The position numbers and the translations under genes were made by a program. Shown here one piece after another: positions 1 to 64,000 of a stretch of DNA of 64,000 bases (the first letter of the stretch is position 1; every line of letters starts with the position of its first letter). Below the pieces are notes generated by a model that saw only the letters and a list, made by a program, of their open reading frames with translations, was not told the origin of the DNA and made no database searches. The DNA is from Patagioenas fasciata. Taxonomy: Eukaryota. Where the stretch lies: NCBI RefSeq assembly GCF_037038585.1, contig NC_092556.1, positions 450,619 through 514,618 of the forward strand, written 5' to 3'.

Positions 1-1650
1 GGGTGATGTGGGGTGATGTGGGGCGGGATGTGGGGCAGCTCGTAGCGGCCCTGCAGCGTCAGCAGGTGCAGCGCCTGCAGCCCTGGATGTGGGGCAGATG
101 TGGGGTGATGTGGGGTGATGTGGGGCGGGATGTGGGGCAGCTCGTAGCGGCCCTGCAGCGTCAGCAGGTGCAGCACCTGCAGCCCTGCGTGTGGGGTGAT
201 GTGGGGTGATGTGGGGTGATGTGGGGTGATGTGGGGCAGGATGTGGGGCGGGATGTGGGGCAGCTCGTAGCGGCCCTGCAGCGTCAGCAGGTGCAGCGCC
301 TGCAGCCCTGGATGTGGGGTGATGTGGGGCAGATGTGGGGCGGGATGTGGGGTGATGTGGGGCGGGATGTGGAGCAGATGTGGGGCAGATGTGGGGCGGG
401 ATGTGGGGTGATGTGGGGCAGGATGTGGGGCAGATGTGGGGTGATGTGGGGCGGGATGTGGGGTGATGTGGGGCAGATGTGGGGTGATGTGGGGCGGGAT
501 GTGGGGCAGCTCGTAGCGGCCCTGCAGCGTCAGCAGGTGCAGCGCCTGCAGCCCTGGATGTGGGGTGATGTGGGGTGATGTGGGGCAGATGTGGGGCGGG
601 ATGTGGGGTGATGTGGGGCGGGATGTGGGGCAGCTCGTAGCGGCCCTGCAGCATCAGCAGGTGCAGCGCCTGCAGCCCTGCAGGTGGGGTGATGTGGGGC
701 AGATGTGGGGCGGGATGTGGGGCGGGATGTGGGGTACTAATGGGGCACAGTGGGGCGGGATATGGGGTACAAATGGGGCACAGTGGGGTGGGGTATTGGG
801 CAGGATCTGGGCCATGATGTGGGTGGGATGTGGGGTGATGTGGGGCGGGATGTGGGGCAGCTCGTAGCGGCCCTGCAGCGTCAGCAGGTGCAGCGCCTGC
901 AGCCCTGGATGTGGGGTGATGTGGGGTGATGTGGGGTGATGTGGGTGGGATGTGGGGCGGATGTGGGGCGGGATGTGGGGTGATGTGGGGCAGATGTGGG
1001 GCAGGATGTGGGGCGGGATGTGGGGTGATGTGGGGCGGGATGTGGGGCAGCTCGTAGCGGCCCTGCAGCGTCAGCAGGTGTAGCGCCTGCAGCCCTGGAT
1101 GTGGGGTGGTGTGGGGCAGAAGATGGGGCAGGATATGGGGTACAAATGGGGCTCAGTGGGGTGGGATTTGGGGTACAAATGGGGCACAGTGGGGTGGGAT
1201 TTGGGGTACAAATGGGGCACAGTGGGGTGGGATATTGGGCAGGATGTGGGGCAGGATGTGTGTGGGATGTGGGGCAGATGTGGGGCAGAAGATGGGGCGG
1301 GATGTGGGGTACAAATGGGGCACAGTGGGGTGGGATATTGGGCAGGATCTGGGCCATGATGTGGGGCAGATGTGGGGTGATGTGGGGCAGAAGATGGGGC
1401 ACAGGGCAGCAAAACGTGGGGTGGGATGTGGGGTACAAATGGGGCACAGTGGGGTTGGATATTGGGCAGGATGTGGGGCACAACGTGGGTGGAATGTGGG
1501 GCAGATATGGGGGGCGATGTGGGGCAGAAGATGGGACAAGTGGGGCAGGATCTGGACCATGATGTGGGGCAGGATGTGGGGCAGGAGCTGGGGCACCATT
1601 GGGGATGTGGGGCGGGATCTATGGGGCGGGATCTATGGGGCAGAACCAAG
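1..1650. repeat. Tandem array built on a GATGTGGGG(C/T) 9-mer, interspersed with a ~50-bp core (cagctcgtagcggccctgcagcgtcagcaggtgcagcgcctgcagccctgg)
   Basis: Direct reading: gggtgatgtggggcgggatgtgggg units with the 50-bp core recurring at 36, 138, 261, 508, 631, 858 and 1048. Confidence 0.9.
36..1098 (-). other. Seven tandem copies of an MFAP4-like exon 5' fragment; minus strand reads ccag|GGCTGCAGGCGCTGCACCTGCTGACGCTGCAGGGCCGCTACGAGCTG = (G)LQALHLLTLQGRYEL
   Basis: The minus-strand translation matches MFAP4 ...EYWLG|LQNMHLLTLKQKYEL in the phase required by the upstream exon's phase-1 donor. Each copy keeps a pyrimidine-tract acceptor but runs into the CCCCACATC satellite instead of the rest of the exon. 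Confidence 0.6.
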
Positions 1651-1714
1651 GCCACCAAACCCCATAGAGCAACGGGAGCTGCTGCAAACCCAGGACTGGG
1701 AGGGACCCGGTCTG

Positions 1715-1812
1715 CGCTGTTCTGTACCAGTCTATACTGGTTTGTACTGGTCCATACTGGTCTATAGTGGTCTATACCGGTCCATACTGGTCTGTACTGG
1801 TCTATACTGGAC
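1715..1812. repeat. (ACTGGTCTAT)n 10-bp microsatellite immediately downstream of the MFAP4-like exon donor (intronic)
   Basis: ccagtctatactggtttgtactggtccatactggtctatagtgg... Confidence 0.85.
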
Positions 1813-1816
1813 TCAC

Positions 1817-1913
1817 CCAGCCAGTATTCGCCGTCCGCGCGTCCAAACCCCTGTTTGTAGTCGTTCCAGCCCCGGAAAAAACTGACGGAGCCGTTAAATC
1901 GCTTCTGAAAAAC
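1817..1913 (-). CDS. MFAP4: MFAP4-like (fibrinogen-related domain) exon encoding [33 protein letters not shown]
   Basis: Near-identical to human MFAP4 [35 protein letters not shown]. Minus-strand acceptor ttcag|GTTTTT and donor CTGG|gtgagt. It is part of the listed ORF 1071..2078 on the minus strand. Confidence 0.85.
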
Positions 1914-1924
1914 CTGAATTATGG

Positions 1925-3950
1925 GAGGGGGTTGGGGGGCACCCGGACGCCTGGGTCCCTCCCGGACGCCTGGGTCCCTCCCGAACTCCTGGGTGCCCCC
2001 CCAATCTCCTGCATCCCCCCCTATATCACACGGACCCCTTAGGCAGACCAGGTCTACCCAGGACCCTCCCAGGGCCACCAGGTCTACCCCGACCTTTCTC
2101 CCCCGAACTCCTGGGTCCCCCCCGAACTCCTGGGTTCCCCCCCGAACTCCTGGGTCCCTCGGGGCACTCCCGGGTCCCTCCCGAACTCCTGGGTCCCTTG
2201 GGGCACTCCTGGGTCCCTCCCGAACTCCTGGGTCCCCCCTATATCACACGGACCCCTTAGGCAGACCAGGTCTACCCAGGACCCTCCCAGGGCCACCAGG
2301 TCTACCCTGCTCTTTCTCCCCCGCACTCCTGGGTCCCCCCCGAACTCCTGGGTCCCCCCGGGTCCGTGGGGCACTCCGGGGTCCCTGGGGCACTCCCGGG
2401 TCCCTTGGGGCACTCCTGGGTCCCTCCCGTACCCCTACATCCCCCCTGTATCAGCTGGACCCCTTAGGCAGACCAGGTCTACCCAGGACCCTCCCAGGGC
2501 CACCAGGTCTACCCTGCTCTTTCTCCCCCGCACTCCTGGGTTCCCCCCCGCACTCCTGGGTTCCCCCGCCCCCCCGGGTCCCTTGGGGCACTCCTGGGTC
2601 CCTCCCGTACCCCTACATCCCCCCTATATCACACGGACCCCTTAGGCAGACCAGGTCTACCCAGGACCCTCCCAGGGCCACCAGGTCTACCCCGACCTTT
2701 CTCCCCCAAACTCCTGGGTTCCTCCCCGAACTCCTGGGTACCCCCCCGAACTCCTGGGTCCCCCCCCGCACTCCTGGGTCCCTCTCGAACTCCTGGATCC
2801 CTTGGGGCACTCCTGGGTCCCTTGGGGCACTCCTGGCTCCCTCCCCGAACTCCTGGTTCCCCCCATATTATATGGACCCCTTAGGCAGACCAGGTCTACC
2901 CAGGACCCTCCTAGGGCCACCAGGTCTACCCTGCTGTTTCTCCCCCGCACTCCTGGGTCCCCCCCGAACTCCTGGGTCTCCTCGGGTCCGTGGGGCACTC
3001 CGGGGTCCGTGGGGCACTCCTGGGTCCCTTGGGGCACTCCTGGGTCCCTCCCGTACCCCTACATCCCCCCTATATCACACGGACCCCTTAGGCAGACCAG
3101 GTCTACCCAGGACCCTCCCAGGGCCACCAGGTCTACCCTGCTCTTACTCCCCTGCACTCCTGGGTCCCCCCCGAACTCCTGGGTCCCCCCCGGGTCCGTG
3201 GGTCCCTCCGGGGTCCGTGGGTCCCTCCGGGGTCCGTGGGGCACTCCGGGGTCCCTTGGGGCACTCCCGGGTCTGTGGGGCACTCCTGGGTCCCCCCATA
3301 TTATATGGACCCCTTAGGCAGACCAGGTCTACCCAGGACCCTCCCAGGGCCACCAGGTCTACCCTGCTCTTTCTCCCCCGAACTCCTGGGTCCCTCCCCG
3401 CACTCCTGGGTCCCCCCCGCACTCCTGGGTCCCCCCGGGTCCGTGGGGCACTCCGGGGTCCGTGGGGCACTCCTGGGTCCCTTGGGGCACTCCGGGGTCC
3501 CTCCCCGAACTCCTGAGTCCCCCCATATTATATGGACCCCTTAGGCAGACCAGGTCTACCCAGGACCCTCCCAGGGCCACCAGGTCTACCCCGACCTTTC
3601 TCCCCCGAACTCTTGGGTCCCTCCCCGCACTCCTGGGTCCCCCCCGCCCCCCCGGGTCCCTGGGGCACTCCCGGGTCCCTCCTGAACTCCTGGGTCCCCC
3701 CTCGCACTCCTGGGTCCTCCTCAAACTCCTGGGTCCCACTCCTGGGTCTCCCCCAACCTCCTACATCCCCCCTATATCACACGGACCCCTTAGGCAGACC
3801 AGGTCTACCCAGGACCCTCCCAGGGCCACCAGGTCTACCCTGCTGTTTCTCCCCCGCACTCCTGGGTCCCCCCCGCACTCCTGGGTCCCCCCGGGTCCGT
3901 GGGTCCCTCCGGGGTCCGTGGGGCACTCCGGGGTCCCTTGGGGCACTCCG
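1925..3950. repeat. ~225-bp tandem repeat, about 9 units, containing CCCGGACGCCTGGGTCCC and ccctatatcacacggaccccttaggcagaccaggtctaccc
   Basis: The unit signature recurs at 2010, 2235, 2440, 2615, 2870, 3065, 3300, 3530 and 3770. It lies in the MFAP4-like intron. Confidence 0.85.
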
Positions 3951-3961
3951 GGGTCCCGTAC

Positions 3962-4105
3962 CGTCCAGACGTGGCCCAGCGTGCTCATGTCGCAGAAGAC
4001 GGGCAGGGGGGGCGCCCCGCTGCCCCCCGGGTACACCAGGTAGACGCCGTCCTCGCGCTCCCCCCCCGCGTGGATGTCGTGGCAGTCGCGGGGGGGCGGG
4101 GGCAC
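3962..4105 (-). CDS. MFAP4: MFAP4-like exon encoding VPPPPRDCHDIHAGGEREDGVYLVYPGGSGAPPLPVFCDMSTLGHVWT
   Basis: Matches human MFAP4 LDCDDIYAQGYQSDGVYLIYPSGPSVPVPVFCDMTTEGGKWT. Acceptor cgag|GTGCCC and donor ACG|gtacgg. It splices in phase 0 to the exon at 1817-1913 (WT|VFQKRF). Confidence 0.8.
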
Positions 4106-4139
4106 CTCGCAGGGGGGAGGGGCTGGCACAGCCACGGGG

Positions 4140-4900
4140 GGGTCATTGGGGGGGCCCCAGTGTCCCCGTGTCCCCATTGACCCCATTGACCCCATTGTTC
4201 CATTGCCCCCAGTGTCCCCATTGACCCCATTGTCCCCATTGACCCCATTATCCCATTAATTATCCCCATTGTTCCCATTGCCCCCATTGTCCCCATTGAT
4301 CCCCATTGTCCCATTCCCCCATTGTCCCCATTGTCCCAGTATCCCCATTATCCCATTAATTATCCCCATTGTCCCCATTCTCCCCATTGTCCCATTGCCC
4401 CCATTGTCCCCATTGCCCCCATTGCCCCCATTGCCCCCTATGTCCCCATTGTCCCAATGTCCCCATTGCCCCCAATGTCCCCATTGTCCCAATGTCCCCA
4501 TTGCCCCCATTGTCCCCATTGCGCCATTGTCCCCATTGCCCCCAATGTCCCCATTGCCCCATTATCCCCATTGCCCCCAATGTCCCCATTGTCCCAATGT
4601 CCCCATTGTCCCCATTGCCCCCAATGTCCCCATTGTCCCCATTGCCCCCAATGTCCCCATTGCCCCATTGTCCCCATTGCCCCCAATGCCCCCATTGTCC
4701 CCATTGCCCCCAATGTCCCCAATGTCCCCATTGCCCCATTGTCCCCATTGCCCCATTGTCCCCATTGCCCCCAATGTCCCCATTGTCCCAATGTCCCCAT
4801 TGTCCCCATTGCCCCCTTGTCCCCATGGTCTGTCCCCTCGTCCCCTGTCCGTCCCGTGTCCGTGGGTCCCACCTCGGGGGCTGATGGGTTGTCCCCCCCC
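4140..4900. repeat. (CCCCATTGTCC)n ~11-bp minisatellite
   Basis: Direct reading. It generates the listed spurious ORFs such as 4269..5249. Confidence 0.9.
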
Positions 4901-4929
4901 CAGTGTCCCCAGGGTCACCAGCGTCAGCA

Positions 4930-6440
4930 GCAGCACCTGCAATGGGGGCGTGTGGGGACCTATAGGATCCATAGGGGGTCCCTATAGAATCCATGGGGTG
5001 CTCTGGGGATCCCTGTTGGATCCACGGGGGGGTCTGGGGGTCCCTATAGGATCCATAGGGGGTCCCTATAGAATCCATGGGGTGCTCTGGGGATCCCTGT
5101 TGGATCCACAGGGGGGTCTGGGGGTCCCTATAGGATCCATAGGGGTTCCCTATAGAATCCATGGGGTGCTCTGGGGATCCCTATTGGATCCGCAGGGGGC
5201 TCTGGGGGGGTCCTATAGGATCCATAGGGGGTCCCCATATGATCCATAGGGGGCTCTGGGGGTCCCTATAGGATCTACAGGGGGGTCGAGTGGTCCCTAT
5301 AGGATCCATAGGAGGTCCCTATAAGATCCATAGTGGGGTCTTGGGGTCCCTATAGGATCCATAGGAGGTCCCTATAGGATCCATAGTGGGGTCTGGGGGT
5401 CCCTGTAGGATCTATGGGGGCTCTGGGGATCCATATAAGATCCATAGGGAGTCCCTATAGGATCCATAGTGGGGCCTGGGCGTCCCCATAGGATCCATAG
5501 GGGGGTCCCTATAGGATCTATGGGGGGCGGAATTTGATCCGTATAGGATCCATAGGGGGTCCCTATAGGATCCATAGGGGTGTCTGGGGGGGTCCCTATA
5601 AGGTCCATAGGGGATCAGTTTGATCCCTATAAGATCCATGGGGGAGTCTGGGGGTCCCTATAGAATCTATAGGGGAGTCTGGGGATCCCTATAGGACCCA
5701 TGGTGAGGGGGGTTGATCCCTATAGGATCCATAGGGGGTCCCTATAGGATCCATACGTCTATCTGGGGGTCCCTATTGGATCCATAGGGGGGTTTGGGGG
5801 TCCCTATAAGATCCATAGGGGATCCCTATAAGATGCATAAGGGGTTGGGGGCTCCCTATAGGATCTATAAGGGGTCCCTATAGGGCCCATAGGGGGTCAG
5901 GGGGTCCCTATTGAGTCCATAGGGGGGCTGGGGGTCCCTATAAGATCCATAGTGGGTCCCTATAGAATCCATAGGGTGCTCTGGGGGGCCCTATAGGATC
6001 CATAGGGGGTCCCTATAAGACCCATAGGGGTGCAGTTTGATCCCTATCGGATCCATAGGGGGGTGTGGGGGTCCCCATAGGATCCATAGGGGGTCTGGGG
6101 ATCCCTATAGGATCCATGGGCGGTCCCTATAGGATCCATAGGGGGTCCTTATAGGACCCACAGGGGTGCAGTTTGATCCCTATCGGATCCATAGGGGGGT
6201 CTGGGGGTCCCTATTGGACCCATAGGGGGTGTGGGGGTCCCTATAAGACCCATAGTGGGTCCCTATAGAATCCATGGGGTGCTCTGGGGGTCCCTATAGG
6301 ATCCATAGGGGGTCCCTATAAGACCCACAGGGGTGCAGTTTGATCCCTATCGGATCCATAGGGGGGCTGGGGGTCCCCATAGGATCCATAGGGGGGCTGG
6401 GGGTCCCCATAGGATCCATAGGGTGCCCGTAGGCCCCCGG
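4930..6440. repeat. ~22-bp minisatellite GGATCCATAGGGGGTCCCTATA
   Basis: Direct reading. Confidence 0.9.
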
Positions 6441-7699: not shown

Positions 7700-8320
7700 T
7701 GAGGACCCGGGGGGGGGGTTTGGGGGGTTTTTGGGGGGTTTTGGGGCCGTTGGTGGCGGTTGGGGGGGGGGGGGAAGATGGCGGTGTGAGGGAAAAAGGG
7801 TTAAAAAATGGGGTTTTTTTGGGGAAAAATGGGGGGTTTGAGGGAAAAATGGGCGGTTTGTGAGGGAAAGTGGGGGTCTATGAGGAAAAGTGGGGGTTTT
7901 TGGGGGGGAAAATGGGGGTTTTGGGGGGGGAAATGGGGGTGGGGAAATGGCGCGGGAAAAGGGGCTTTTGGGGGGGAAAAAAGGGGGGGTTGGGGGCTTT
8001 GTGAGGGGGAAAGGGGGGGTTGGGGGGAAAAAGGGGGAAGTTTGGGGGGAAAAGTGGATTTTGAGGGGAAAAAGGGGGTTTTGGGGTTTGTGGGGGAAAA
8101 TGGGAGGAGAAAAGGGGATTTGGGGGGGAAAAGGGGGATTTGGGGGCGGTTTTGAGGAGCAAAATGAGGGGAAATGGGAGGGGTTTAGGTGGAAAATGAG
8201 GTTTTTTAGGCAGAAAAAATTGGTGTTTCTAAGGGCAAAAAGTGAGGTTTTAGGTAAAAAGTTTGGGGGTTTGGGCCACGAAAAATTCGAGGTTTTGGGG
8301 GCGAAAAAGTGAGATTTTGG
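7700..8320. repeat. G-rich minisatellite (GGGGGAAAAGGGGGTTTTG family)
   Basis: Direct reading. Confidence 0.85.
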
Positions 8321-11210: not shown

Positions 11211-11219
11211 GGTAAAAAA

Positions 11220-13200: not shown

Positions 13201-13281
13201 GGGGTTGATGGATTTGGGGGTTCACTGCGGGGGTCTCGGGGTGCAGGGGGGGCGGGGGGTGGCTGACGCGTCCCCCCGCAG

Positions 13282-13581: not shown

Positions 13582-13599
13582 GTGAGTGGCTCAAAGTGG

Positions 13600-16330: not shown

Positions 16331-16383
16331 AGGTGAACGTTGGGGTGCGGGGCCCCCCGTGGTGACCCCCCCCCGTTCCCCAG

Positions 16384-49620: not shown

Positions 49621-49648
49621 CCCCTCGGTGACCCCACCCTCCCCCTAG

Positions 49649-50047
<399 letters not shown>

Positions 50048-54650: not shown

Positions 54651-54654
54651 AGAC

Positions 54655-54695
54655 CCACATGTTCTCGTAGTTGGCGGCGTCTTCGCTGTCGCTGC
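54655..54695 (-). CDS. LAT: LAT C-terminal exon carrying the YENM motif: (G)SDSEDAANYENMW...; 3' end unresolved because the ORF runs on into satellite
   Basis: Minus-strand acceptor cccccccag|GCAGCGAC. Matches human LAT EEEGAPDYENLQELN (Grb2 YxN site). The phase is compatible with the EYVNV exon. Confidence 0.55.
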
Positions 54696-54832
54696 CTGGG
54701 GGGGAAGGGAGAATTTTGGGGTGAAAAAGGGGGATTTTGGGAAAAAAGAAGAGGATTTGGGGGTGAAAAGGGGGAATTTTGGGGGGGAATGGGGGATTTT
54801 TGGGGTGAAAAAGGGGGATTTTGGGCACTCAC

Positions 54833-54874
54833 CGTGGTGGGGGGAGGGGACGTTGACGTATTCCTGGCTGCCCC
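54833..54874 (-). CDS. LAT: LAT exon: (G)GSQEYVNVPSPHH
   Basis: Minus-strand acceptor ccccag|GGGGCAGCC and donor CCACG|gtgagt. Matches human LAT GSREYVNVSQE, the canonical Grb2-SH2 pYVNV site. Confidence 0.65.
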
Positions 54875-54899
54875 CTGGGGGATGGGAGGATGTGGGGCG

Positions 54900-56520
54900 G
54901 TTATGGGGCACAGTGTGGGGCTATGGGGCTGCTTATGTGGGGCAGGATGTGGGGCTATGGGGCTGGGTATGGGGCACAATGTGGGGCTATGGGGCAGAGT
55001 TATGGGGCAGAATGGGGGGGTCTATGGGGCAGAATGGGGGGGTCTATGGGGTAGAGTTATGGGGCAGAATGGGGGGTCTATGGGGCAGGTTATGGGGCAG
55101 AATGGGGGGGTCTATGGGGCAGAATGGGGGGGTCTATGGGGCAGGTTATGGGGCAGAATGGGGGGTCTATGGTGCAGGTTATGGGGCAGAATTGTGGGGT
55201 CTGTGGGGCAGAGTTATGGGGCAGAATGGGGGGTCTATGGGGCAGGTTATGGGGCAGAATTGTGGGGTCTGTGGGGCAGAGTTATGGGGCAGAATGGGGG
55301 TCTATGGGGCTTCTTATGGGGCAGGTTGTGGGGCAGGTTATGGGGCAGAATGAGGGTCTATGCGGCAGGTTCTGGGGCTGGTTATGGGGCGGGATGTGGG
55401 GTGGGATATGGTGCTGGTTATGGGGCAGGTTGTGGGTCTACGGGGCTGGTTATGGGGCAGGATGTGGGGTGGGATATAGGGCAGGTTATGAGGCTGCTTA
55501 TGGGTCTGGTTATGGGGCAGAATGAGGGTCTATGGGGCAGGATCTGGGGCTGGTTATGGGGCAGGATGTGGGGCTATGGGGCTGGCTATGGGGTTGGTTA
55601 CGGGACTGGTTATGGGGCTGGATGTGGGGTGGGATATGGGGCTGGTTATGGGGTAGGTTGTGGGTCTATGGGGCAGGTTATGGGGCAGGATGTGGGGCAG
55701 GTTATGGGGCGGGATGGGGGTCTATGGGGCGGGTTATGGGGCTGGTTATGGGGCACATTATGGGGCACAATGTTGGTGTATGGGGCTAGTTATGGGGCAG
55801 GATGCGGGTCCATGGGGCAGGTTCTGAGGCAGGATGTGGGGCAGGTTATGGGGCAGTATATGGGGCAGGTTATGGGGTGGGATGTGGGTCGATGGGGCAG
55901 GTTATGGGGGGATCTATGGGGCTGGTTATGGGGCAGAATGGGGCTCTATGGGGCTGGTTCTGGGGCAGGTTGTGGGTCTATGGGGCAGGATATGGGGCAG
56001 GTTATAGGGCTGGTTATGGGGCAGAATGTGGGGCAGGTTATGGGGGCAGGATGTGGGTCTATGGGGCAGGTTATGGGGCAGGATGTGGGTCTATGGGGCT
56101 GGTTATGGGGCAGGATGTGGGGTGGGATGTGAGTCTATGGGGTTGGTTATGGGGCAGGTTATGGGGCAGGATGCGGGTCTACGGGGCTGGTTATGGGGCT
56201 GGTTATGGGGCGGGATGTGGGTCTATGGGGCTGGTTATGGGGCTGGTTATGGGGCGGGATGTGGGTCTATGGGGCTGGTTATGGGGCTGGTTATGGGGCG
56301 GGATGTGGGTCTATGGGGTTGGTTATGGGGCTGGTTATGGGGCAGGACGCGACTCTATGGGGCAGGTTACAGGGCTGGTTATGGGGTGGGATGTGGATCT
56401 ATGGGGCAGATCCATGGGGCAGATCCGTGGGTCTATGGGTCAGATCCATGGGGCAGATCCGTGGGTCTATGGGGCAGATCCATGGGGCAGATCCGTGGGT
56501 CTATGGGGCAGATCCATGGG
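54900..56520. repeat. GGTTATGGGGCAGGATGTGG-family minisatellite
   Basis: Direct reading. Confidence 0.9.
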
Positions 56521-56539
56521 GCAGATCCGTGGGTCTCAC

Positions 56540-56590
56540 CCAATGAGCTCCCGGTGCCTTTGGGGACGTTGACGTAATCGTCACCTTGAG
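56540..56590 (-). CDS. LAT: LAT exon: QGDDYVNVPKGTGSSL
   Basis: Minus-strand acceptor ttcccag|CTCAAGG and donor CATTGG|gtgaga. Identical to the human LAT motif IDDYVNVPES. Its phase-1 end joins the EYVNV exon as GGG. Confidence 0.7.
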
Positions 56591-56720
56591 CTGGGAATTA
56601 ACGGCAATTAACGGTAATTAACGGGTAATTAACGGTAATTAACGGGTAATTAACGGTAATTAAGGGGTAATTAACGGTAATTAACGGGTAATTAGCGGGT
56701 AATTAACGGTAATTAAGGGT
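56590..56720. repeat. (TAATTAACGG(G))n, about 12 units, AT-rich microsatellite directly abutting the LAT DDYVNVP exon acceptor
   Basis: attaacggcaattaacggtaattaacgggtaattaacgg... Confidence 0.9.
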
Positions 56721-56799
56721 AATTAAGGGGACCATGGGTCCCGTTGTCACCCACCCGAGGACTCGCTGTCCCCACCCGGGGGGGTCCCGTTTGTCACCT

Positions 56800-58960
56800 C
56801 CTGGTCGGGCAGAACGTGCCTGGGGACAATGGGGGGCAATGGGACACAATGGGGACAATGGGGGCAATGGGGACAATGGGACACAATGGGGACAATGGGG
56901 ACAATGGGGACAATGGGGGAATGGGGACAATGGGGACAATGGGGACAATGGGGACATTGGGGACAATGGGAGTCAATGGGAGTCAATGGGGTCAATGGGG
57001 GTGAATGGGGGTCAATGGGGGTCAATGGGAATCAATGGGGGTCAATGGGGTCAATGGGGTCAATGGGGTCAATGGGGACAATGGGGACAATGGGACAATG
57101 GGGACATTGGGGAAAATGGGGACAATGGGGACAATGAGGACAATGGGAGTCAATGGGGGTCAATGGGGATCAATGAGGGTCAATGGGGTTCAATGGGAGT
57201 AAATGGGGGTCAATGGGGGGCAATGGGGGCAATGGGGACAATGGGACACAATGGGGACAATGGGGACAATGGGGGCAATGGGGGCAATGGGGACAATGGG
57301 GGCAATGGGGACAATGAGGACAATGGGAGTCAATGGGGGTCAATGGGGATCAATGGGGGTCAATGGGGATCAATGGGAGTCAATGGGGGTCAATGGGGGT
57401 CAATGGGGGTCAATGGGGGTCAATGGGGTCAATGGGGTCAATGGGGACATTTGGTGACGTCACGCACACGTAGCCCATGTAGGTGACGTCATCGTCATCG
57501 GGGTCCGGGGGGACGGGGGGACCTGTGGGGACAATGGGGACAATGGGTCAATGGGGACAATGGGGTCGATGGGGGTCAATGGGAGTCAATGGAGATCAAT
57601 GGGGGTCAATGGGAGTCAATGGGGTCAATGGGGGTCTACGGGGGTCAATGGGGACAATGGGGACAATGGGGGTCAATGGGGTCTATGGGGTCAATGGGGG
57701 TCTATGGGGGGCAATGGGAGTCAATGGGGATCAATGGGGATCAATGGGGGTCAATGGGGGTCTACGGGGGTCTATGGGGGTCAATGGGGGTCAATGGGGT
57801 CAATGGGGGGCAATGGGGTCAATGGGGGTCAATGGGTCAATGGGGGGCAATGGGGTCAATGGGTCAATGGGGGGTCAATGGGGTCAATGGGAGTCAAAGG
57901 GGGGCAATGGGGATCAATGGGGTCTTTGGGGGTCTACGGGGGTCAATGGGGACAATGGGGATCAATGGGGGTCAATGGGGGTCTACGGGGGTCAATGGGG
58001 TCAATGGGGGTCAATGGGGGTCTATGGGGGTCAATGGGGGTCAATGGGGTCAATGGGGGGTCAATGGGTCAATGGGGGTCAGTGGGGTCAATGGGGTCAA
58101 TGGGGTCATGGGGTCAATGGGGGTCAATGGGGGTCAATGGGGTCAATGGGGGTCAACGGGGTCAATGGGAGTCAATAGGGATCAATGGGGGTCAATGGGG
58201 ATCAATGGGGGGTCAATGGGAGTCAATGGGGGTCAATGGGGGTCAATGGGGATCAATGGGGACACTTGGGGGTCAATGGGGGTCAATGGGGTCAATGGGA
58301 GTCAATGGGGGGCAATGGGTCAATGGGGGTCAATGGGTCAATGGGTCAATGGGGGTCAATGGGGGTCAATGGGGACAATGGGGGTCAATGGGGGGCAATG
58401 GGGATCAATGGGGTCTTTGGGGGTCTACAGGGGTCAATGGGGGTCAATGGGGGTCAATGGGTCAGTGGGGATCAATGGGGTCAATGGGGGTCAATGGGGG
58501 TCAATGGGGTCAATGGGATCAATGGGGTCAATGGGGTCAATGGGGGTCAATGGGGTCTTTGGGGGTCTACGGGGGTCAATGGGGGTCTATGGGGGTCAAT
58601 GGGTCAATGGGGGTCAATGGGGTCAATGGGGGTCAATGGGGGTCAATGGGGGTCAATGGGTCAATGGGGGTCAATGGGGGTCAATGGGGATCAATGGGGT
58701 CAATGGGGTCAATGGGGGTCAATGGGGGTCAATGGGTCAATGGGGGTCAATGGGGGTCAATGGGGGTCTATGGGGGTCAATGGGTCAATGGGTCAATGGG
58801 TCAATGGGGGTCAATGGGGGTCAATGGGGATCAATGGGGTCAATGGGGTCAATGGGGGTCAATGGGGGTCAATGGGTCAATGGGTCAATGGGTCAATGGG
58901 GGTCAATGGGGTCAATGGGGGTCTATGGGGGTCAATGGGTCAATGGGGTCCATGGGGACA
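56800..58960. repeat. (GGGGTCAATGG)n ~11-bp minisatellite
   Basis: Direct reading. It generates the spurious ORFs 57551..59815 and 57589..58992. Confidence 0.9.
57449..57522 (-). CDS. LAT: Candidate LAT exon: PPVPPDPDDDDVTYMGYVCVTSPN (homolog of the human EDEDDYHNPGYLVVLPDS PLCgamma-binding region); 3' boundary uncertain
   Basis: Minus-strand acceptor ccccacag|GTCCCC. Shares the DD-Y-x3-GY(V/L)xV pattern. The donor is weak (AAAT|gtcccc). Confidence 0.4.
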
Positions 58961-58982
58961 AGGGGTCCCCATTGTCACTCAC

Positions 58983-59186
58983 CGTTCGTTGACCCCCGGT
59001 GGCTCTGGGGGGGTTGGGGGGACCTGGGGGCCCATTGGGGACACTGGGGACATTGCCCCCCCGGCTCCGCCCCCATTGGCCCCAGGGGCCCCATTGTTGT
59101 CCCCACTGTCCCCGTTGTCCCCAGGGGCGCCCGCGGCGTCGGGTCCCTCGGCGCTTCCCACGGGTGGGGGAGGGGCTGGGGGGGAC
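58983..59186 (-). CDS. LAT: Candidate LAT Pro/acidic-rich exon: (R)SPPAPPPPVGSAEGPDAAGAPGDNGDSGDNNGAPGANGGGAGGAMSPVSPMGPQVPPTPPEPPGVNER
   Basis: Acceptor cccacag|GTCCCCC and donor AACGAACG|gtgagtgac. Its phase joins the PRIQF exon (AG+G). The composition resembles the human LAT proline-rich then acidic stretch. Confidence 0.4.
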
Positions 59187-59199
59187 CTGTGGGGGAGGG

Positions 59200-59790
59200 G
59201 ACACGCGGGGGTCACGGGGGACACTGGGGGTCAATGGGGACATTGGGGTCAGTGGGGACTTTGGGGACATTGGGGTCACTTGGGGGTCATTGGGGACATT
59301 GGGGACACTTGGGGGTCAATGGGGACATTGGGGGTCAATGGGGACACTGGGGGGTCATGGGGGACATTGGGGGACATTGGGGACATTGGGGACACTTGGG
59401 GGTCATGGGGGACATTGGGGGTCAATGGGGACTTTGGGGACATTGGGGACACTTGGGGGTCAATGGGGACATTGGGGGTCAATGGGGACACTGGGGGTCA
59501 ATGGGGACACTTGGGGGTCAATGGGGACACTGGGGGTCAATGGGGACACTTGGGGGTCAATGGGGACACTGGGGACACTTGGGGGTCAATGGGGACACTG
59601 GGGGGTCAGTGGGGACATTGGGGGTCAATGGGGACATTGGGGACACTTGGGGGTCAATGGGGACATTGGGGGTCAATGGGGACACTTGGGGGTCACTGGG
59701 GTCCTTTGGGGGTCACTTATGGGTCGCGGGGTCACTTGGGGGTCACTGGGGGGTCACTTGGGGGTCACTTGGGGGTCACTTGGGGGTCAC
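59200..59790. repeat. GGGGGTCAATGGGGACATTGG-family minisatellite
   Basis: Direct reading. Confidence 0.9.
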
Positions 59791-59794
59791 TGAC

Positions 59795-59838
59795 CTCTGC
59801 AAGGGGTCACGATGACAAAACTGGATCCGGGGGGCGGC
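59795..59838 (-). CDS. LAT: LAT exon: AAPRIQFCHRDPLQ(R)
   Basis: Acceptor cccccccag|GCCGCC and donor GCAGAG|gtcagt. Matches human LAT LYPRGIQFKRPHTV. Confidence 0.5.
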
Positions 59839-59999
59839 CTGGGGGGGGCGGGGGGGAGGGGCCAGTTGGGGGTCAGGCCCCTCCCCCCCAGCCCCATAGA
59901 AGGGACCCAGGAGTCCGGGAGGGACCCAGGAGTCCGGGACCCACAAGTGCTGCCCCCCTCCCCCCCACTCACTTGTCAGCGGCGTCCAATGGGGGGAGG

Positions 60000-62140
60000 G
60001 GACCTGTGGGGAGACCCATAAGTGACCCACAAGTGACCCAGGGAGACCCCCACCCAGCCCCACAAGTGCCCCATAGCGACCCCCGAGTGCCCCATAGCGA
60101 CCCCCAAGTGCCCCATAGTGACCCCCAAGTGCCCCATAGCGACCCCCAAGTGCCCCATAGCGAACCCCCAGGAGCCCCAGAGCGCCCCCCAAGTGCCCCA
60201 TAGTGACCCCCAAGTGCCCCATAGCGACCCCCCAAGTGCCCCATAGTGCCCCCCAAGTGCCCCATAGCGACCTCTAACTGCCCCCTAAGTGCCACCCCAG
60301 CCCCATAAGTGCCCCAGAGCGCCCCCCAAGTGCCCCATAGTGCCCCCCAAGTGCCCCCCATAGCGACCCCCAAGTGCCCCCCAGCCCCATAAGTGCCCCA
60401 TATTGACCCCTCTTAGTGCCCCCCAAGTGCCCCATAGTGACCCCCAAGTGCCCCATAGCGACCCCCAAGTGCCCCCATAGTTTCCTCCCCAGCCCCCCAA
60501 ATGCCCCATAGCGCCCCCTAAGTGCCCCCCAGTGCCACCCCAGCCCCATAAGTGCCCCAGAGCGCCCCCCAAGTGGCCCCATAGTGACCCCCAAGTGCCC
60601 CATAGTGCCCCCCAAGTGCCCCATAGCGACCTCCCAAGTGCCCCATAGCGATCCCCAAGTGCCCCATAGCGAACCCCCAGGTGCCCCATAGCGACCCCCA
60701 AGTGGCCCCCAAGTGCCCCCCAAGTGCCCCCCATAGCGACCCCCAAGTGCCCCCCAGCCCCATAAGTGCCCCATATTGACCCCTCTTAGTGCCCCCCAAG
60801 TGCCCCATAGTGACCCCCAAGTGCCCCATAGCGACCCCCAAGTGCCCCCCATAGTTTCCTCCCCAGCCCCCCAAATGCCCCATAGCGCCCCCTAAGTGCC
60901 CCCCAGTGCCACCCCAGCCCCATAAGTGCCCCAGAGCGCCCCCCAAGTGGCCCCATAGTGACCCCCAAGTGCCCCATAGTGCCCCCCAAGTGCCCCATAG
61001 CGATCCCCAAGTGCCCCATAGCGAACCCCCAGGTGCCCCATAGCGACCCCCAAGTGGCCCCCAAGTGCCCCCCATGTGCCCCCCATAGCACCCCCCAAGT
61101 GCCCCCCAGCCCCATAAGTGCCCCATATTGACCCCTCTTAGTGCCCCCCAAGTGCCCCATAGTGACCCCCAAGTGCCCCATAGCGACCCCCAAGTGCCCC
61201 CATAGTTTCCTCCCCAGCCCCCCAAATGCCCCATAGCGCCCCCTAAGTGCCCCCCAGTGCCACCCCAGCCCCATAAGTGCCCCAGAGCGCCCCCCAAGTG
61301 GCCCATAGTGACCCCCAAGTGCCCCATAGCGACCCCCAAAGTGCCCCATGGTGACCTCCCAACTGCCCCATAGCGACCCCCAAAGTGCCCCATAGTGCCC
61401 CACAAGTGCCCCATAGCGACCTCCCAAGTGCCCCACAGCGACCCCCCAAGTGCCTCCCATGTGCCCCCCATAGCGACCCCCAAGTGCCCCCATAGTTTCC
61501 TCCTCAGCCCCCCAAGTGCCCCATAGCGCCCCATAAGTGCCCCCTAAGTGCCGCCCCAACCCCATAAGTGCCCCATAGCGACCCCCAAAGTGCCCCATGG
61601 TGCCCCACAAGTGCCCCATAGCGACCTCCCAAGTGCCCCACAGCGACCCCCCAAGTGCCCCATAGCGACCCCCAAGTGCCCCCCAAGTACCCCCCATGTG
61701 CCCCCATAGCACCCCCAAGTGCCCCCCAGCCCCATAAGTGCCCCATATTGACCCCTCTTAGTGCCCCCCAAGTGCCCCACAGCGACCCCCGAAGCGCCCC
61801 ATAGCGCCCCCCAAGTGCCCCATAGCGCCCCCTAAGTGCCCCCCAGTGCCACCCCAGCCCCGTAAGTGCCCCAGAGCGCCCCCCAAGTGCCCCATAGTGA
61901 CCACCAAGTGCCCCATAGTGCCCCCCAAATGCCCCACAGCGACCTCTAACTGCCCCCTAAGTGCCACCCCAGCCCCATAAGTGCCCCATAGTGCCCCCCA
62001 AGTGCCCCATAGTGCCCCCCAAGTGCCCCATAGCGACCTCTAACTGCCCCCTAAGTGCCACCCCAGCCCCATAAGTGCCCCAGAGTGCCCCCCAAGTGCC
62101 CCATAGTGACCCCCAAGTGCCCCCCAAGTGCCCCATAGCG
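60000..62140. repeat. CCCCAAGTGCCCCATAGCGACC-family minisatellite
   Basis: Direct reading. It generates many spurious minus-strand ORFs (60274..60852, 60518..61534, 60786..61718). Confidence 0.9.
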
Positions 62141-62153
62141 CCCCCCAACTCAC

Positions 62154-62250
62154 GGCGGCGGCACCGGGTGCAGAGGCCGAGCAGCAACAGGAGGGTGGGG
62201 GGCAGCAGGATCAGGCCCCACAACCCGCTATGGGGCCCGGGACCCTCCAT
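62154..62250 (-). CDS. LAT: LAT exon 1: MEGPGPHSGLWGLILLPPTLLLLLGLCTRCRR(R), with a short ectodomain, a TM helix and a juxtamembrane CxxC palmitoylation motif
   Basis: Minus-strand ATG at 62250-62248 with Kozak cccagccccATGG, and donor CGCCGCC|gtgagt. The architecture matches human LAT MEEAILVPCVLGLLLLPILAMLMALCVHCHRLPG. Confidence 0.65.
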
Positions 62251-62399
62251 GGGGCTGGGGGGAGGGCGTCAGCCGTGGGGCCCGGACGCCTGGGTCCCCC
62301 CCTCATCCCGCCCCACGGGATCCCATTGGGGGCGTTGGGGGGGTCTGACCCATAAGTTGGGGGGCCCAGAAGTACAGTGGTTCCTGCCCCATAAGTTGG

Positions 62400-63840
62400 G
62401 GGTCTGGGAAGCCCATAACTGAGGGACCCAGGCGTCCGGGCCCCACATCTCCCCCCCAAATGCCACCTAAGGGAGGGACCCAGGCGTCCGGGCCCCACAT
62501 CTCCCCCCCAAATGCCACCTGAAGCAGGGACCCAGGCGTCCGGGCCCCACATCTCCCCCCCAAATGCCACCTGAAGCAGGGACCCAGGCGTCCGGGCCCC
62601 ACATCTCCCCCCCAAATGTCACCTAAGGAAGGGACCCAGGCGTCCGGGAGGGACCCAGGCGTCCGGGCCCCACATCTCCCCCCACCCAAATGCCACCTAA
62701 GGGAGGGACCCAGGCGTCCGGGCCCCACATCTCCCCCCCAAATGCCCCCTAAGGGAGGGACCCAGGCGTCCGGGCCCCACATCTCCCCCCCAGATGCCAC
62801 CTGAAGCAGGGACCCAGGTGTCCGGGAGGGACCCAGGCGTCCGGGCCCCACATCTCCCCCCCCAAATGCCCCCTAAGGGAGGGACCCAGGCGTCCGGGCC
62901 CCACATCTCCCCCCCCAAATGCCACCTAAGGGAGGGACCCAGGCGTTCGGGCCCCACATCTCCCCCCCAAATGCCACCTAAGGGAGGGACCCAGGCGTCC
63001 GGGCCCCACATCTCCCCCCCCAAATGCCCCCTAAGGGAGGGACCCAGGCGTCCGGGCCCCACATCTCCCCCCCCAAATGCCCCCTAAGGGAGGGACCCAG
63101 GCGTCCGGGCCCCACATCTCCCCCCCCAAATGTCACCTAAGGGAGGGACCCAGGCGTCCGGGAGGGACCCAGGCATCCGGGCCCCACATCTCCCCCCCAA
63201 ATGCCCCCTAAGGGAGGGACCCAGGCGTCCGGGCCCCCCATCTCCCCCCCCAAATGCCCCCTAAGGGAGGGACCCAGGTGTCCGGGCCCCACATCTCCCC
63301 CCCCAAATGCCCCCTAAGGGAGGGACCCAGGCGTCCGGGCCCCACATCTCCCCCCCAAATGCCCCCTAAGGGAGGGACCCAGGCGTCCGGGCCCCACATC
63401 TCCCCCCCAGATGTCACCTAAGGGAGGGACCCAGGCGTCTGGGCCCCACATCTCCCCCCCAAATGCCCCCTAAGGGAGGGACCCAGGCGTCCGGGCCCCA
63501 CATCTCCCCCCCAAATGTCACCTAAGGGAGGGACCCAGGCGTCCGGGCCCCACATCTCCCCCCCCAAATGCCACCTAAGGGAGGGACCCAGGCGTCCGGG
63601 CCCCACATCTCCCCCCCCAAATGTCACCTAAGGGAGGGACCCAGGCGTCCGGGCCCCACATCTCTCCCCCAAATGCCCCCTAAGGGAGGGACCCAGGCGT
63701 CCGGGCCCCACATCTCCCCCCCAAATGCCCCCTAAGGGAGGGACCCAGGCGTCCGGGCCCCACATCTCCCCCCCCAAATGCCCCCTAAGGGAGGGACCCA
63801 GGCGTCCGGGAGGGACCCAGGCGTCCGGGCCCCACATCTC
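62400..63840. repeat. 60-bp satellite GGGACCCAGGCGTCCGGGCCCCACATCTCCCCCCCAAATGCCCCCTAAGGGA, about 24 units
   Basis: Direct reading. It shares the GGGACCCAGGCGTCCGGG core with the arrays at 1925-3950, 6520-6610, 37990-39060, 39245-40020 and 52020-52100. Confidence 0.95.
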
Positions 63841-64000
63841 CCCCATCCCCCGCTACCTCCTCCCGGCGCCGCCACCTCCGGGTCCCCGAGCGCACGTGGG
63901 GGGAGGGGCCACCCCCCCTCCCCTCCCCCACCCCCAGGAAGCTGCGGGCGCCGTGGGGCAGGAAACGTGTGGGGCAGGAAATGTGTGGGGCAGGAAACGT

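What the first reader, a model, noticed from the sequence alone, without database searches (positions are those of the whole stretch)
1..64000. Gene islands surviving in a window that is about 75-80% minisatellite, with 16p13.3 synteny
The order MFAP4-like(-) / SRRM2(+) / ELOB(-) / PRSS(+) / LAT(-) is packed into 62 kb. Every intron and intergenic spacer is filled with a different GC-rich tandem array, and exons sit as 30-300-bp unique islands. SRRM2-ELOB-PRSS reproduces the human 16p13.3 order. This is the kind of region historically missing from bird assemblies, so annotations here are likely absent or fragmented.
Basis: inference. Interest (0 to 1): 0.55.

Follow-up and report, generated by a model that had tools for sequence, protein, structure and literature searches.

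The report
Pigeon dot-chromosome genes amid minisatellites
This is a stretch of a tiny, GC-rich chromosome of the band-tailed pigeon in which five intact genes sit as small exon islands in introns and spacers almost entirely filled with minisatellites, a recently published feature of bird "dot" chromosomes called sequence stuttering, so it is real but not new.

Summary
Tandem Repeats Finder covers 75-83% of the window, against 0.3% or less in randomised sequence. The 19 long introns (over 600 bp) are each 84-100% repeat, and 95% of all intron bases are repeat. The 32 small exons (3-399 bp) are 12% repeat.

The five genes are real and in the stated order:
- MFAP4-like (-)
- SRRM2 (+)
- ELOB (-)
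- a PRSS33/27-like protease (+)
- LAT (-)

All 19 introns I solved exactly are GT-AG. ELOB, the protease and LAT match RefSeq proteins of Patagioenas fasciata exactly, all on one 2.11-Mb sequence, so the bird inference is right.

Synteny is only partly right. SRRM2-ELOB-PRSS33 matches the human 16p13.3 order, but LAT lies at 16p11.2 and MFAP4 at 17p11.2.

The prediction about annotation is half right:
- ELOB is annotated correctly.
- LAT is annotated only as an "uncharacterized protein".
- The protease model lacks its two signal-peptide exons.
- No pigeon MFAP4 protein was found.

The arrays are not all different; two motif families make up about half of the repeat DNA.

The phenomenon, including copies of exon edges inside neighbouring introns (seen here in the protease and MFAP4-like genes), has been published for chicken, zebra finch and seven other bird genomes. 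It is already known, and interest is low.

The parts
1..4969 (-). MFAP4-like gene (fibrinogen C-terminal domain), 5' part only. Exons at about 4846-4969 (signal peptide; the ATG is tentative and lies at the edge of an array), about 3962-4122, and 1815-1913. The rest of the gene runs off the left end of the window.
   Evidence: Pfam Fibrinogen_C, E = 2.9e-28. Best hits are bird 'microfibril-associated glycoprotein 4' proteins at 79-84% identity, all fragments of 120-171 aa. tblastn with the Athene noctua protein places the exons. Exon boundary sequences were read.
36..1095 (-). Exon stuttering: seven tandem copies of the first 48 bp of the next MFAP4-like exon (GLQALHLLTLQGRYEL). Each copy is cut off and followed by the GGATGTGGGG-type minisatellite. 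None continues into the RVELEDF... sequence of the orthologue.
   Evidence: Copies at 1095-1048, 905-858, 678-631, 554-507, 308-261, 185-138 and 83-36. TRF periods of 102-246 span them. Chicken MFAP4 (chr38) is listed as an exon-stuttering gene in PMC12954441.
7250..7699 (+). Probable SRRM2 promoter and non-coding first exon. It holds four ACTACAACTCCCAGC-type motifs (ZNF143-like) and two AAGATGGCGGC motifs (YY1-like). The exon ends at 7699, followed by GTGAGG.
   Evidence: Read directly from the sequence. The motif names rest on my own knowledge. The assignment to SRRM2 is inferred from strand and position.
13304..29000 (+). SRRM2 coding region. ATG at 13304. Exons 13304-13581, 15007-15105, 15191-15346 (3' end approximate), about 16385-16462, 16530-16583, 18546-18578, 18679-18730, 20925-21001, 21084-21129, and a giant exon from 21210 to a donor at or before the stop at 26250. 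A poly-Ser exon lies around 28198-28339. The 3' end is not resolved.
   Evidence: Pfam cwf21, E = 2.1e-16. Human SRRM2 chain 5mqf_S, E = 1.2e-61 over residues 1-178. Splice sites read. Stop-free frame of 2058 aa at 20076-26249.
21210..26249 (+). SRRM2 giant exon made of in-frame coding minisatellites (Arg/Ser/Pro-rich).
   Evidence: 79% TRF-covered. 15 of its 16 arrays have a period divisible by 3, against 20 of 51 non-coding arrays at base-unit level.
33522..37212 (-). ELOB (elongin B). Four coding exons: 37212-37210 (ATG only), 35873-35739, 34823-34715 and 33631-33522. All three introns are GT-AG.
   Evidence: The conceptual protein is identical to XP_065715606.1 / XP_071657420.1, elongin-B of Patagioenas fasciata. 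PDB elongin B, E = 4e-63. Exact splice solution.
39157..50047 (+). PRSS33/27-like trypsin-family serine protease of 374 aa. Exons 39157-39241, 40039-40071, 41599-41764, 43334-43605, 45835-46004 and 49649-50047. The His/Asp/Ser triad motifs are intact. It has a coding 21-bp repeat (GENGAET) and a hydrophobic C-terminal tail.
   Evidence: Pfam Trypsin, E = 9e-66. 100% identity to XP_071657427.1 over the shared part. The full model aligns from residue 1 with the Caloenas nicobarica orthologue, 84% identity. All 5 introns are GT-AG.
41286..41598 (+). Exon stuttering: two extra tandem copies of the splice acceptor plus the first 88 bp of protease exon 3, lying in the upstream intron. Spacings are 129 and 156 bp, and the frame stays open through them. 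The RefSeq model's start codon (41571) lies in this stretch.
   Evidence: BLASTN hits at 41313-41400 (97.7%) and 41442-41529 (100%). 40-mer matches at 41286, 41415 and 41571. Open frame 41253-41765. P0001 begins [14 protein letters not shown].
53528..62250 (-). LAT (linker for activation of T cells). Ten coding exons of 31-204 bp. It has a transmembrane segment followed by CTRC, a YMGYVHVLP motif, and YVNV, YVNV and YENM motifs. All nine introns are GT-AG.
   Evidence: Pfam LAT PF15234, 33.2 bits against a cut-off of 27. Exact 10-exon mapping of P0123, 'uncharacterized protein [Patagioenas fasciata]', which carries a precomputed PF15234 hit. Only 2 proteins in 5.8 billion matched at E <= 0.001.
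7804..13248 (.). SRRM2 first intron. It is filled by an A/T-rich G-run array (8281-11212, GC 0.37, 65% match between units) and a young 41-bp array (11239-12806, 96-97% match).
56822..58957 (.). Example of the recurrent CCCCATTGT / GGGGTCAATG family (about 224 copies of a 10-bp unit) in LAT introns, surrounding the 55-bp LAT exon 5. Related arrays lie at 4155-4830, 18736-20585 (family extends to about 20895), 40372-41302, 42087-43330, 43643-44616 and 59197-59701.
   Evidence: The exon inside the array is shown.
38023..40018 (.). Clusters of the dispersed core motif GGGACCCAGGCGTCCGGG(CCCCAC). They flank protease exon 1 in inverted orientation ('+' copies at 38023-39007, '-' copies at 39248-40018). 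Other loci: 1942-3889, 6524-6601, 28785-29000, 52026-52097, 59902-59938 and 62281-63829.
   Evidence: 96 sites with up to 2 mismatches, against 0.08 expected. 9 loci, with the shared extension CCCCAC.

Best explanation
The window is euchromatin from a very small, GC-rich 'dot' microchromosome of the band-tailed pigeon (Patagioenas fasciata). It carries five functional genes whose long introns and intergenic spacers have been almost wholly replaced by locally generated minisatellites. This is the process published as 'sequence stuttering'.

Inferred mechanism: short G/C-run motifs with base units of about 10 and 20 bp are prone to form G-quadruplexes and hairpins. They expand and contract by replication slippage and by unequal exchange or gene conversion in a compact, highly recombining, GC-biased compartment. 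Purifying selection preserves only exons, splice signals and promoters. Where an expansion crosses an exon border, it leaves truncated exon copies in the adjacent intron. Inside coding DNA, only in-frame units persist.

What is shown here: the repeat architecture, the intact genes, the species, the exon-edge copies and the in-frame coding arrays. What is inferred from the literature: the mutational mechanism and the assignment to a dot chromosome.
For: - Repeat coverage is 75-83%, against 0.3% or less in randomised sequence.
- Introns are 95% repeat and small exons 12%.
- All 19 exactly solved introns are GT-AG with pyrimidine tracts.
- ELOB, the protease and LAT are identical to P. fasciata RefSeq proteins on one 2.11-Mb sequence.
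- Match between units ranges from 63% to 98%, so old and very young arrays coexist.
- Exon-edge copies occur in the protease (2 extra copies of 88 bp) and in MFAP4-like (7 copies of 48 bp). The published exon-stuttering description gives source sequences at the exon border in over 90% of cases, 20-187 bp long, with 1-44 copies (PMC12954441).
- Base periods cluster near 10 and 20 bp. Zebra finch dot-chromosome introns are over 70% tandem repeat, with units in multiples of 10-11 bp (bioRxiv 10.1101/2025.10.17.683159).
- There are 620 canonical G4 motifs, 9.7 per kb, which is 3.6 times the Markov expectation.
- Coding arrays in SRRM2 are in frame for 15 of 16.
- Chicken MFAP4 lies on dot chromosome 38 and is a listed stuttering gene.
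Against: - Variation in intron length within the species, which is a defining feature of stuttering, could not be tested.
- Chromosome identity is inferred from the size of the sequence and from chicken orthologues, not shown.
- Two motif families recur across genes, and an 18-24-nt core is dispersed over 9 loci. This fits poorly with a purely local origin for every array.
- Absence of transposable elements was not tested with a repeat library.
- The lengths of individual arrays in the assembly may be wrong.
Confidence: 0.88

Rival explanations
1. The arrays are largely an assembly artefact, that is, mis-joined, collapsed or inflated low-complexity reads, rather than the real structure of the locus.
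For: GC-rich, G4-dense sequence is known to cause HiFi dropout on dot chromosomes. Several arrays are 95-98% identical between units and therefore hard to size. No reads were available to check.
Against: - Exons of five genes appear in the correct order and frame, with 19 of 19 introns GT-AG across the arrays.
- Three conceptual proteins equal the RefSeq models.
- The same architecture was confirmed with nanopore reads in chicken and in a telomere-to-telomere (T2T) zebra finch assembly.
- Most arrays are degenerate (63-85% match between units), which assembles reliably.
Confidence: 0.04
2. This is a decaying or heterochromatic satellite region in which the gene fragments are pseudogenes.
For: The MFAP4-like gene has no unambiguous start codon outside a repeat, has truncated exon copies, and has no pigeon protein in the database. 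The protease has an unusual activation site, R|NVGG.
Against: - All five genes have open frames, and splice sites are canonical at every intron solved exactly in four of them.
- ELOB is about 90% identical to mammalian (mouse and human) elongin B.
- The protease keeps its catalytic triad, and the NVGG site is conserved in Caloenas and chicken.
- LAT keeps its transmembrane segment, CxxC and all the YxN motifs.
- SRRM2 has a housekeeping-type promoter.
Confidence: 0.03
3. The minisatellites are not only mutational debris but are used. They could act as recombination hotspots, as G4-based regulators of transcription or splicing, or as arrays of binding sites seeded by the dispersed GGGACCCAGGCGTCCGGGCCCCAC core. 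This is compatible with the main explanation; it adds a function to it.
For: - G4 density is 9.7 per kb.
- The core motif occurs at 96 sites against 0.08 expected, clustered around the 5' ends of the protease and LAT in inverted orientation.
- The same motif families recur in unrelated introns.
- A functional role is proposed as a hypothesis in the zebra finch preprint.
Against: - There is no consistent strand bias of G4 motifs relative to transcription.
- Arrays differ widely in sequence, age and GC content (0.35-0.94).
- In chicken, intron arrays differ between individuals and species, which argues against constraint.
- The core motif was found in no paper and no metagenome contig.
Confidence: 0.12

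Closest known systems
'Sequence stuttering' of genes on chicken dot chromosomes (Hron et al., Genome Biol Evol 2026, PMC12954441)
   Same: Introns are almost entirely imperfect tandem repeats, with units of tens to hundreds of bp. Partial exon copies that start at the exon border lie in the adjacent intron. Intergenic DNA is affected too. The genes are GC-rich and were once 'missing'. MFAP4 itself is a listed chicken example on chr38.
   Different: The species and order differ (Columbiformes). Length polymorphism was not tested here. In this window a large share of the arrays belongs to motif families shared between genes, whereas the paper stresses local origin.
Intronic minisatellites and non-B DNA on zebra finch and other bird dot chromosomes (bioRxiv 10.1101/2025.10.17.683159; complete zebra finch genome)
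   Same: Tandem repeats make up over 70% of dot-chromosome introns. Units come in multiples of 10-11 bp. G4 and direct-repeat motifs are strongly enriched in introns and intergenic euchromatin. Here introns are 95% repeat, base periods are about 10 and 20 bp, and there are 9.7 G4 motifs per kb.
   Different: That study reports more intronic G4s on the coding strand. In this window the template strand has as many or more, but this is a single locus.
Chicken dot chromosomes as defined by Huang et al. (PNAS 2023, PMC9974502)
   Same: They are very small (about 4 Mb), extremely GC-rich, repeat-rich, gene-dense and enriched for housekeeping genes, and were previously unassembled. This window has GC 0.62, 5 genes in 62 kb, and a source sequence of 2.1 Mb.
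   Different: The chromosome assignment of the pigeon sequence was not shown here. No CNM-type centromeric satellite was identified.
Human 16p13.3 gene block KCTD5-PRSS27-SRRM2-ELOB-PRSS33
   Same: The order SRRM2, ELOB, PRSS33-like is the same, and SRRM2 and ELOB lie tail to tail (window models).
   Different: The flanking genes LAT (16p11.2) and MFAP4 (17p11.2) come from other human regions. The protease is head to head with ELOB here. From memory, human PRSS33 is on the same strand as ELOB. Human introns there are not filled with minisatellites.

Membership tests
Sequence stuttering (avian dot-chromosome genes) | Introns largely composed of imperfect short tandem repeats that TRF recognises | tested here: met
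   94.8% of 30.9 kb of intron is TRF-covered, and every intron over 600 bp is 84-100% covered. Randomised controls give 0.3% or less.
Sequence stuttering (avian dot-chromosome genes) | Occasional partial copies of an exon edge in the neighbouring intron (exon stuttering) | tested here: met
   Protease exon 3: 2 extra copies of the acceptor plus 88 bp, BLASTN 150-159 bits against the paper's threshold of 42.1. MFAP4-like: 7 copies of a 48-bp exon start.
Sequence stuttering (avian dot-chromosome genes) | Extensive variation in intron length between individuals | not testable with these tools
   No reads and no second haplotype or individual were available.
Sequence stuttering (avian dot-chromosome genes) | Location in the euchromatin of a dot chromosome | tested here: inconclusive
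   The source sequence is 2,114,529 bp. Chicken MFAP4 and the 16p11.2 orthologues lie on chr38. No direct chromosome assignment exists for the pigeon sequence.
Sequence stuttering (avian dot-chromosome genes) | Euchromatin devoid of interspersed repeats (transposable elements) | not tested
   No transposon library was available. No Pfam domain, including reverse transcriptase or transposase, was found in the ten unassigned frames tested, which had the most repeat-free DNA. That is only weak support.
Human 16p13.3 synteny block | Adjacent SRRM2, ELOB and PRSS33 in that order | tested here: met
   Window order. Human order from PMC6418362 and PMC11918891.
Human 16p13.3 synteny block | All genes of the window belong to 16p13.3 | tested here: not met
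   LAT and the MFAP4-like gene are confirmed, but they map to human 16p11.2 and 17p11.2 (established knowledge). Chicken chr38 combines MFAP4 with 16p11.2 genes.
LAT (PF15234) | N-terminal transmembrane segment with a juxtamembrane CxxC, plus several YxN Grb2-type motifs and a PLC-gamma-type Y-hydrophobic motif | tested here: met
   The protein begins MEGPGPHSGLWGLILLPPTLLLLLGLCTRCRRR and carries YMGYVHVLP, DDYVNVP, QEYVNVP and ANYENM. The Pfam LAT score is above the cut-off.
S1 (trypsin-family) serine protease, PRSS27/33 group | Signal peptide, activation site, His/Asp/Ser catalytic triad, and closest relatives named PRSS33 or PRSS27 | tested here: met
   TAAHC, DIAL and GDSGGP motifs are present. 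Pfam Trypsin, E = 9e-66. The signal-peptide exons are supported by the Caloenas orthologue. Best mammalian hits are PRSS33 at 55-56% and PRSS27 at about 50% identity. Which human paralogue is the true orthologue remains unresolved.

The most novel reading that the evidence does not exclude
Not every array arises locally. A dispersed 18-24-nt GC-rich core, GGGACCCAGGCGTCCGGG(CCCCAC), together with a few other shared G-run motifs such as CCCCATTGT, may act as portable seeds or preferred substrates that start stuttering at many places. These places include the 5' ends of the protease and LAT, where the core forms inverted clusters. In addition, some exon borders may be intrinsically prone to stuttering: MFAP4 is stuttered in both chicken and pigeon, lineages that are deeply diverged. 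If so, stuttering would be sequence-directed rather than random, and the seed could be a binding site or a recombination or replication-stall signal.
Probability: 0.15. Interest if true: 0.45.

Novelty: already known. Interest (0 to 1): 0.2.

Why it matters
The window is a clean, fully resolved example in a pigeon of how bird dot-chromosome genes survive inside minisatellite-saturated DNA. It has three practical lessons.

- Automated annotation still fails in these regions in specific ways. The protease model starts inside a repeat and loses its signal peptide. LAT is left unnamed. No protein from the MFAP4-like gene was found in the database.
- Exon-edge copies create decoy splice acceptors that can mislead gene prediction and possibly splicing.
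- Avian LAT is so divergent that only two proteins in 5.8 billion matched it.

None of this changes the current understanding of dot chromosomes. The phenomenon, its repeat-unit sizes, its G4 content and exon stuttering are all already published.

Tried and rejected
- Rfam at gathering thresholds found nothing in the window. The two ARAGORN tRNA-Gly calls (83 and 89 nt, at 16285 and 49638) lie in GC-rich exon or intron DNA and have no Rfam tRNA support. I reject them as false positives.
- The look-up of encoding contigs had no record for the protease or ELOB proteins, so neighbouring RefSeq gene calls could not be retrieved.
- A PDB search with the SRRM2 C-terminal frame hit only poly-Ser low-complexity sequence, so the 3' end of SRRM2 stays unresolved.
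- Pfam scans of ten unassigned frames, those with the most repeat-free DNA (4.9-7.5 kb, 26-33.5 kb and 37.3-39.1 kb), found no further domain, so there is no evidence for a sixth gene.
- Literature searches for the core motif, the 41-bp unit and the 9-bp unit found nothing. A metagenome scan for the 24-mer found nothing.
- An apparent excess of 3n periods among non-coding arrays (53 of 87) disappeared when the smallest TRF period was used (20 of 51). I reject it as an artefact of composite periods.
- I looked for a strand rule linking G-richness to transcription direction and found none.
- My first LAT model used wrong frames in two exons and missed the exon hidden at 57468-57522. I corrected it with the RefSeq protein.

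Full report

Yes. Tandem Repeats Finder, run over the whole window, covers 83.2% of bases at score >=50, 79.3% at >=100 and 75.5% at >=200. Five first-order-Markov randomisations of the same sequence gave 0-0.3%. After removing overlapping rows there are 103 arrays. Their periods run from 3 to 624 bp, their median GC is 0.62 (range 0.35-0.94), and the match between units is 63-98%. The window as a whole has GC 0.62, with sharp local swings in GC skew.

**2. Which genes are present?**

I made six-frame translations of the repeat-free gaps and followed them with profile and structure-sequence searches.

- A fibrinogen-C-domain gene lies on the minus strand at the left edge (Pfam E = 2.9e-28). 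Its best hits are bird 'microfibril-associated glycoprotein 4' proteins at 79-84% identity.
- SRRM2 lies on the plus strand (cwf21 domain; human SRRM2 chain 5mqf_S, E = 1.2e-61).
- ELOB lies on the minus strand (PDB elongin B, E = 4e-63).
- A trypsin-family protease lies on the plus strand (E = 9e-66).
- LAT lies on the minus strand (PF15234 above its cut-off).

Exact splice solutions gave GT-AG with pyrimidine tracts for all 19 introns solved: 9 in LAT, 5 in the protease, 3 in ELOB and 2 in SRRM2. No further Pfam domain was found in the ten unassigned frames tested, those with the most repeat-free DNA. No Rfam family was found.

**3. Where does the window come from?**

- The protease matches 'serine protease 33-like [Patagioenas fasciata]' (XP_071657427.1) at 100% identity.
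- My ELOB model is letter for letter XP_065715606.1, elongin-B of the same species.
- A 219-aa 'uncharacterized protein [Patagioenas fasciata]' maps exactly onto ten exons of the LAT locus.

All three proteins are recorded on one sequence of 2,114,529 bp. The window is therefore band-tailed pigeon DNA from a very small chromosome-scale sequence.

**4. Anatomy**

Introns total 30.9 kb and are 94.8% repeat. All introns longer than 600 bp are 84-100% repeat, while four of SRRM2's five 67-100-bp introns have none. The 32 small exons (3-399 bp) are 11.6% repeat.

Three refinements to 'unique exon islands' are needed.

- SRRM2's 5-kb exon is itself 79% TRF-covered. It consists of coding minisatellites whose periods are divisible by 3 in 15 of 16 arrays. 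Only 20 of 51 non-coding arrays show this at base-unit level.
- One LAT exon (57468-57522) is buried inside a 10-bp array. LAT exon 4 and the last protease exon contain minisatellite-like coding repeats.
- Exon edges have been copied into introns. The acceptor plus the first 88 bp of protease exon 3 occurs twice more just upstream, at 100% and 97.7% identity with spacings of 129 and 156 bp. The first 48 bp of an MFAP4-like exon occurs seven times at 36-1095, each copy truncated and followed by the array unit.

**5. Are the arrays all different?**

Only partly. Linking arrays that share 12-mers groups the 103 arrays into 44 families. A CCCCATTGT-like family (13.6 kb) appears in introns of MFAP4-like, SRRM2, the protease and LAT. 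A second group (11.5 kb) shares CTATGGGGC-type units and the core GGGACCCAGGCGTCCGGG.

That 18-mer occurs 96 times with up to 2 mismatches, against 0.08 expected. It sits at nine loci, on both strands, and within arrays of different periods. At five of those loci it extends to a 24-nt core ending in CCCCAC. It brackets protease exon 1 in inverted orientation, and one copy lies about 30 nt upstream of the LAT start codon.

Base periods cluster near 10 and 20 bp. Canonical G4 motifs number 620, or 9.7 per kb, covering 31% of bases. This is 3.6 times the Markov expectation, with no consistent strand bias relative to transcription.

**6. Synteny**

The human order KCTD5, PRSS27, SRRM2, TCEB2/ELOB, PRSS33 at 16p13.3 is documented in PMC6418362 and PMC11918891. 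The window reproduces SRRM2-ELOB-PRSS33-like.

LAT (16p11.2) and MFAP4 (17p11.2) are not 16p13.3 genes; this rests on established knowledge. Chicken MFAP4 lies on dot chromosome 38 beside SLC5A2 and KAT8, and ALDOA is also on chr38. These three are human 16p11.2 genes. The window is therefore best seen as part of the pigeon counterpart of that dot chromosome, which mixes several human regions. This last step is inference.

**7. Annotation status**

The result is mixed.

- ELOB is exact.
- LAT is complete but unnamed.
- The protease model begins MSPLSPLSP, which is translated from the minisatellite just upstream of exon 3. It omits two exons (39157-39241 and 40039-40071) that encode a signal peptide. 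With those exons my 374-aa model aligns from residue 1 with the Caloenas nicobarica orthologue.
- No P. fasciata protein containing the MFAP4-like exons was returned, and the bird 'MFAP4' hits are all fragments of 120-171 aa.

**8. What is it, and how does it work?**

The architecture matches a published phenomenon point for point.

- Hron et al. 2026 (PMC12954441) describe 'sequence stuttering' on chicken dot chromosomes. Median coverage of introns by simple repeats reaches 93%. The repeats are imperfect and in tandem. Exon fragments that start at the exon border in over 90% of cases (20-187 bp, 1-44 copies) are copied into the adjacent intron. Intergenic DNA is affected as well. Intron lengths vary between individuals. 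The authors suggest replication-associated instability or meiotic gene conversion as causes.
- A 2026 preprint on non-B DNA reports that tandem repeats make up over 70% of dot-chromosome introns in the T2T zebra finch. Units are mostly multiples of 10-11 bp, with strong G4 enrichment, and seven other bird genomes show similar patterns.
- Huang et al. 2023 (PMC9974502) define dot chromosomes as about 4 Mb, extremely GC-rich, gene-dense and rich in housekeeping genes.

I therefore conclude with high confidence that the window is dot-chromosome euchromatin undergoing sequence stuttering. The mix of array ages, the exon-edge copies and the in-frame coding arrays are what is shown in this window. 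The slippage, gene-conversion and GC-biased-conversion mechanism is inferred from those papers.

**9. Rivals**

- An assembly artefact is unlikely. Five genes are collinear and in frame across the arrays, and three conceptual proteins equal the RefSeq models. However, the lengths of individual arrays remain unverified.
- A pseudogene graveyard is contradicted by intact frames, splice sites, catalytic and signalling motifs, and a housekeeping-type SRRM2 promoter.
- A functional role for the arrays or for the dispersed core cannot be excluded, and nothing here supports it directly.

**10. Verdict**

The phenomenon is already known, and this is one more instance of it, in a pigeon.

The residual points of interest are modest:
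- the mis-modelled protease;
- the unnamed, highly divergent LAT;
- MFAP4 exon stuttering in both chicken and pigeon;
- the dispersed 18-24-nt core motif, which fits poorly with a purely local origin for all arrays.

Noticed in passing
window 1942-3889, 6524-6601, 28785-29000, 38023-40018, 52026-52097, 59902-59938, 62281-63829: The dispersed core GGGACCCAGGCGTCCGGG has 96 sites against 0.08 expected and often extends to ...CCCCAC. It sits in arrays of different periods and on both strands. It forms inverted clusters around protease exon 1 and upstream of the LAT start. No match was found in papers or metagenome contigs.
   Followed up: partly
window 39157-39241, 40039-40071, 41571: The RefSeq protease model XP_071657427.1 starts at an ATG inside the intron-2 minisatellite and lacks two upstream exons that encode the signal peptide. 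With those exons, the protein matches the Caloenas orthologue from residue 1.
   Followed up: yes
window 41286-41598: The two decoy copies of the exon-3 acceptor plus 88 bp are spaced 129 and 156 bp apart, both multiples of 3, and the exon frame stays open from 41253 to 41765. Use of an upstream acceptor would therefore add an in-frame duplicate of the activation-site peptide.
   Followed up: partly
window 7250-7699: A housekeeping-type promoter with four ACTACAACTCCCAGC-like motifs (ZNF143-type) in alternating orientation and two AAGATGGCGGC motifs (YY1-type). It is followed by a non-coding exon that ends at a GTGAGG donor. This is probably SRRM2 exon 1, with a 5.6-kb repeat-filled first intron.
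   Followed up: partly
window 21210-26249: SRRM2's giant exon is 79% tandem repeat, and 15 of its 16 arrays have periods divisible by 3. This shows that in-frame expansion of minisatellites is tolerated inside coding sequence.
   Followed up: yes
window 53528-62250: Pigeon LAT is extremely divergent: only two proteins in the 5.8-billion-sequence collection matched at E <= 0.001, and RefSeq calls it 'uncharacterized protein'. Exon 4 shares stretches of 80-90% identity with CCCCATTGT-type minisatellites of the flanking introns and of other genes.
   Followed up: partly
window 4944-4970: The only in-frame ATG upstream of the MFAP4-like signal-peptide exon lies in the last unit of the adjacent CCATGGATCC-containing array. 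The start codon may therefore derive from a repeat, or it may lie on an exon I did not find.
   Followed up: no
window 11239-12806: A very young array: 38 copies of a 41-bp unit at 96-97% match, organised in 83- and 124-bp higher-order periods, inside the SRRM2 first intron. The unit length equals that of the chicken CNM satellite, but the sequences could not be compared.
   Followed up: no
window 8281-11212, 53611-54825, 56596-56730: Not all arrays are GC-rich. Seven of the 103 arrays have GC below 0.5, for example AAAAAGTGAGGTTTTTGGGG-type units at GC 0.37. They keep one G-run per 10-11-bp half-unit.
   Followed up: partly
window 16285-16367, 49638-49726: ARAGORN calls two 'tRNA-Gly' genes of 83 and 89 nt in GC-rich exon or intron DNA. 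Rfam finds no tRNA, so these are false positives.
   Followed up: yes
window 41620-41640: The protease activation site reads R|NVGG rather than the usual R|IVGG. The same NVGG occurs in the Caloenas and chicken homologues, so it is a conserved avian feature rather than a lesion.
   Followed up: partly
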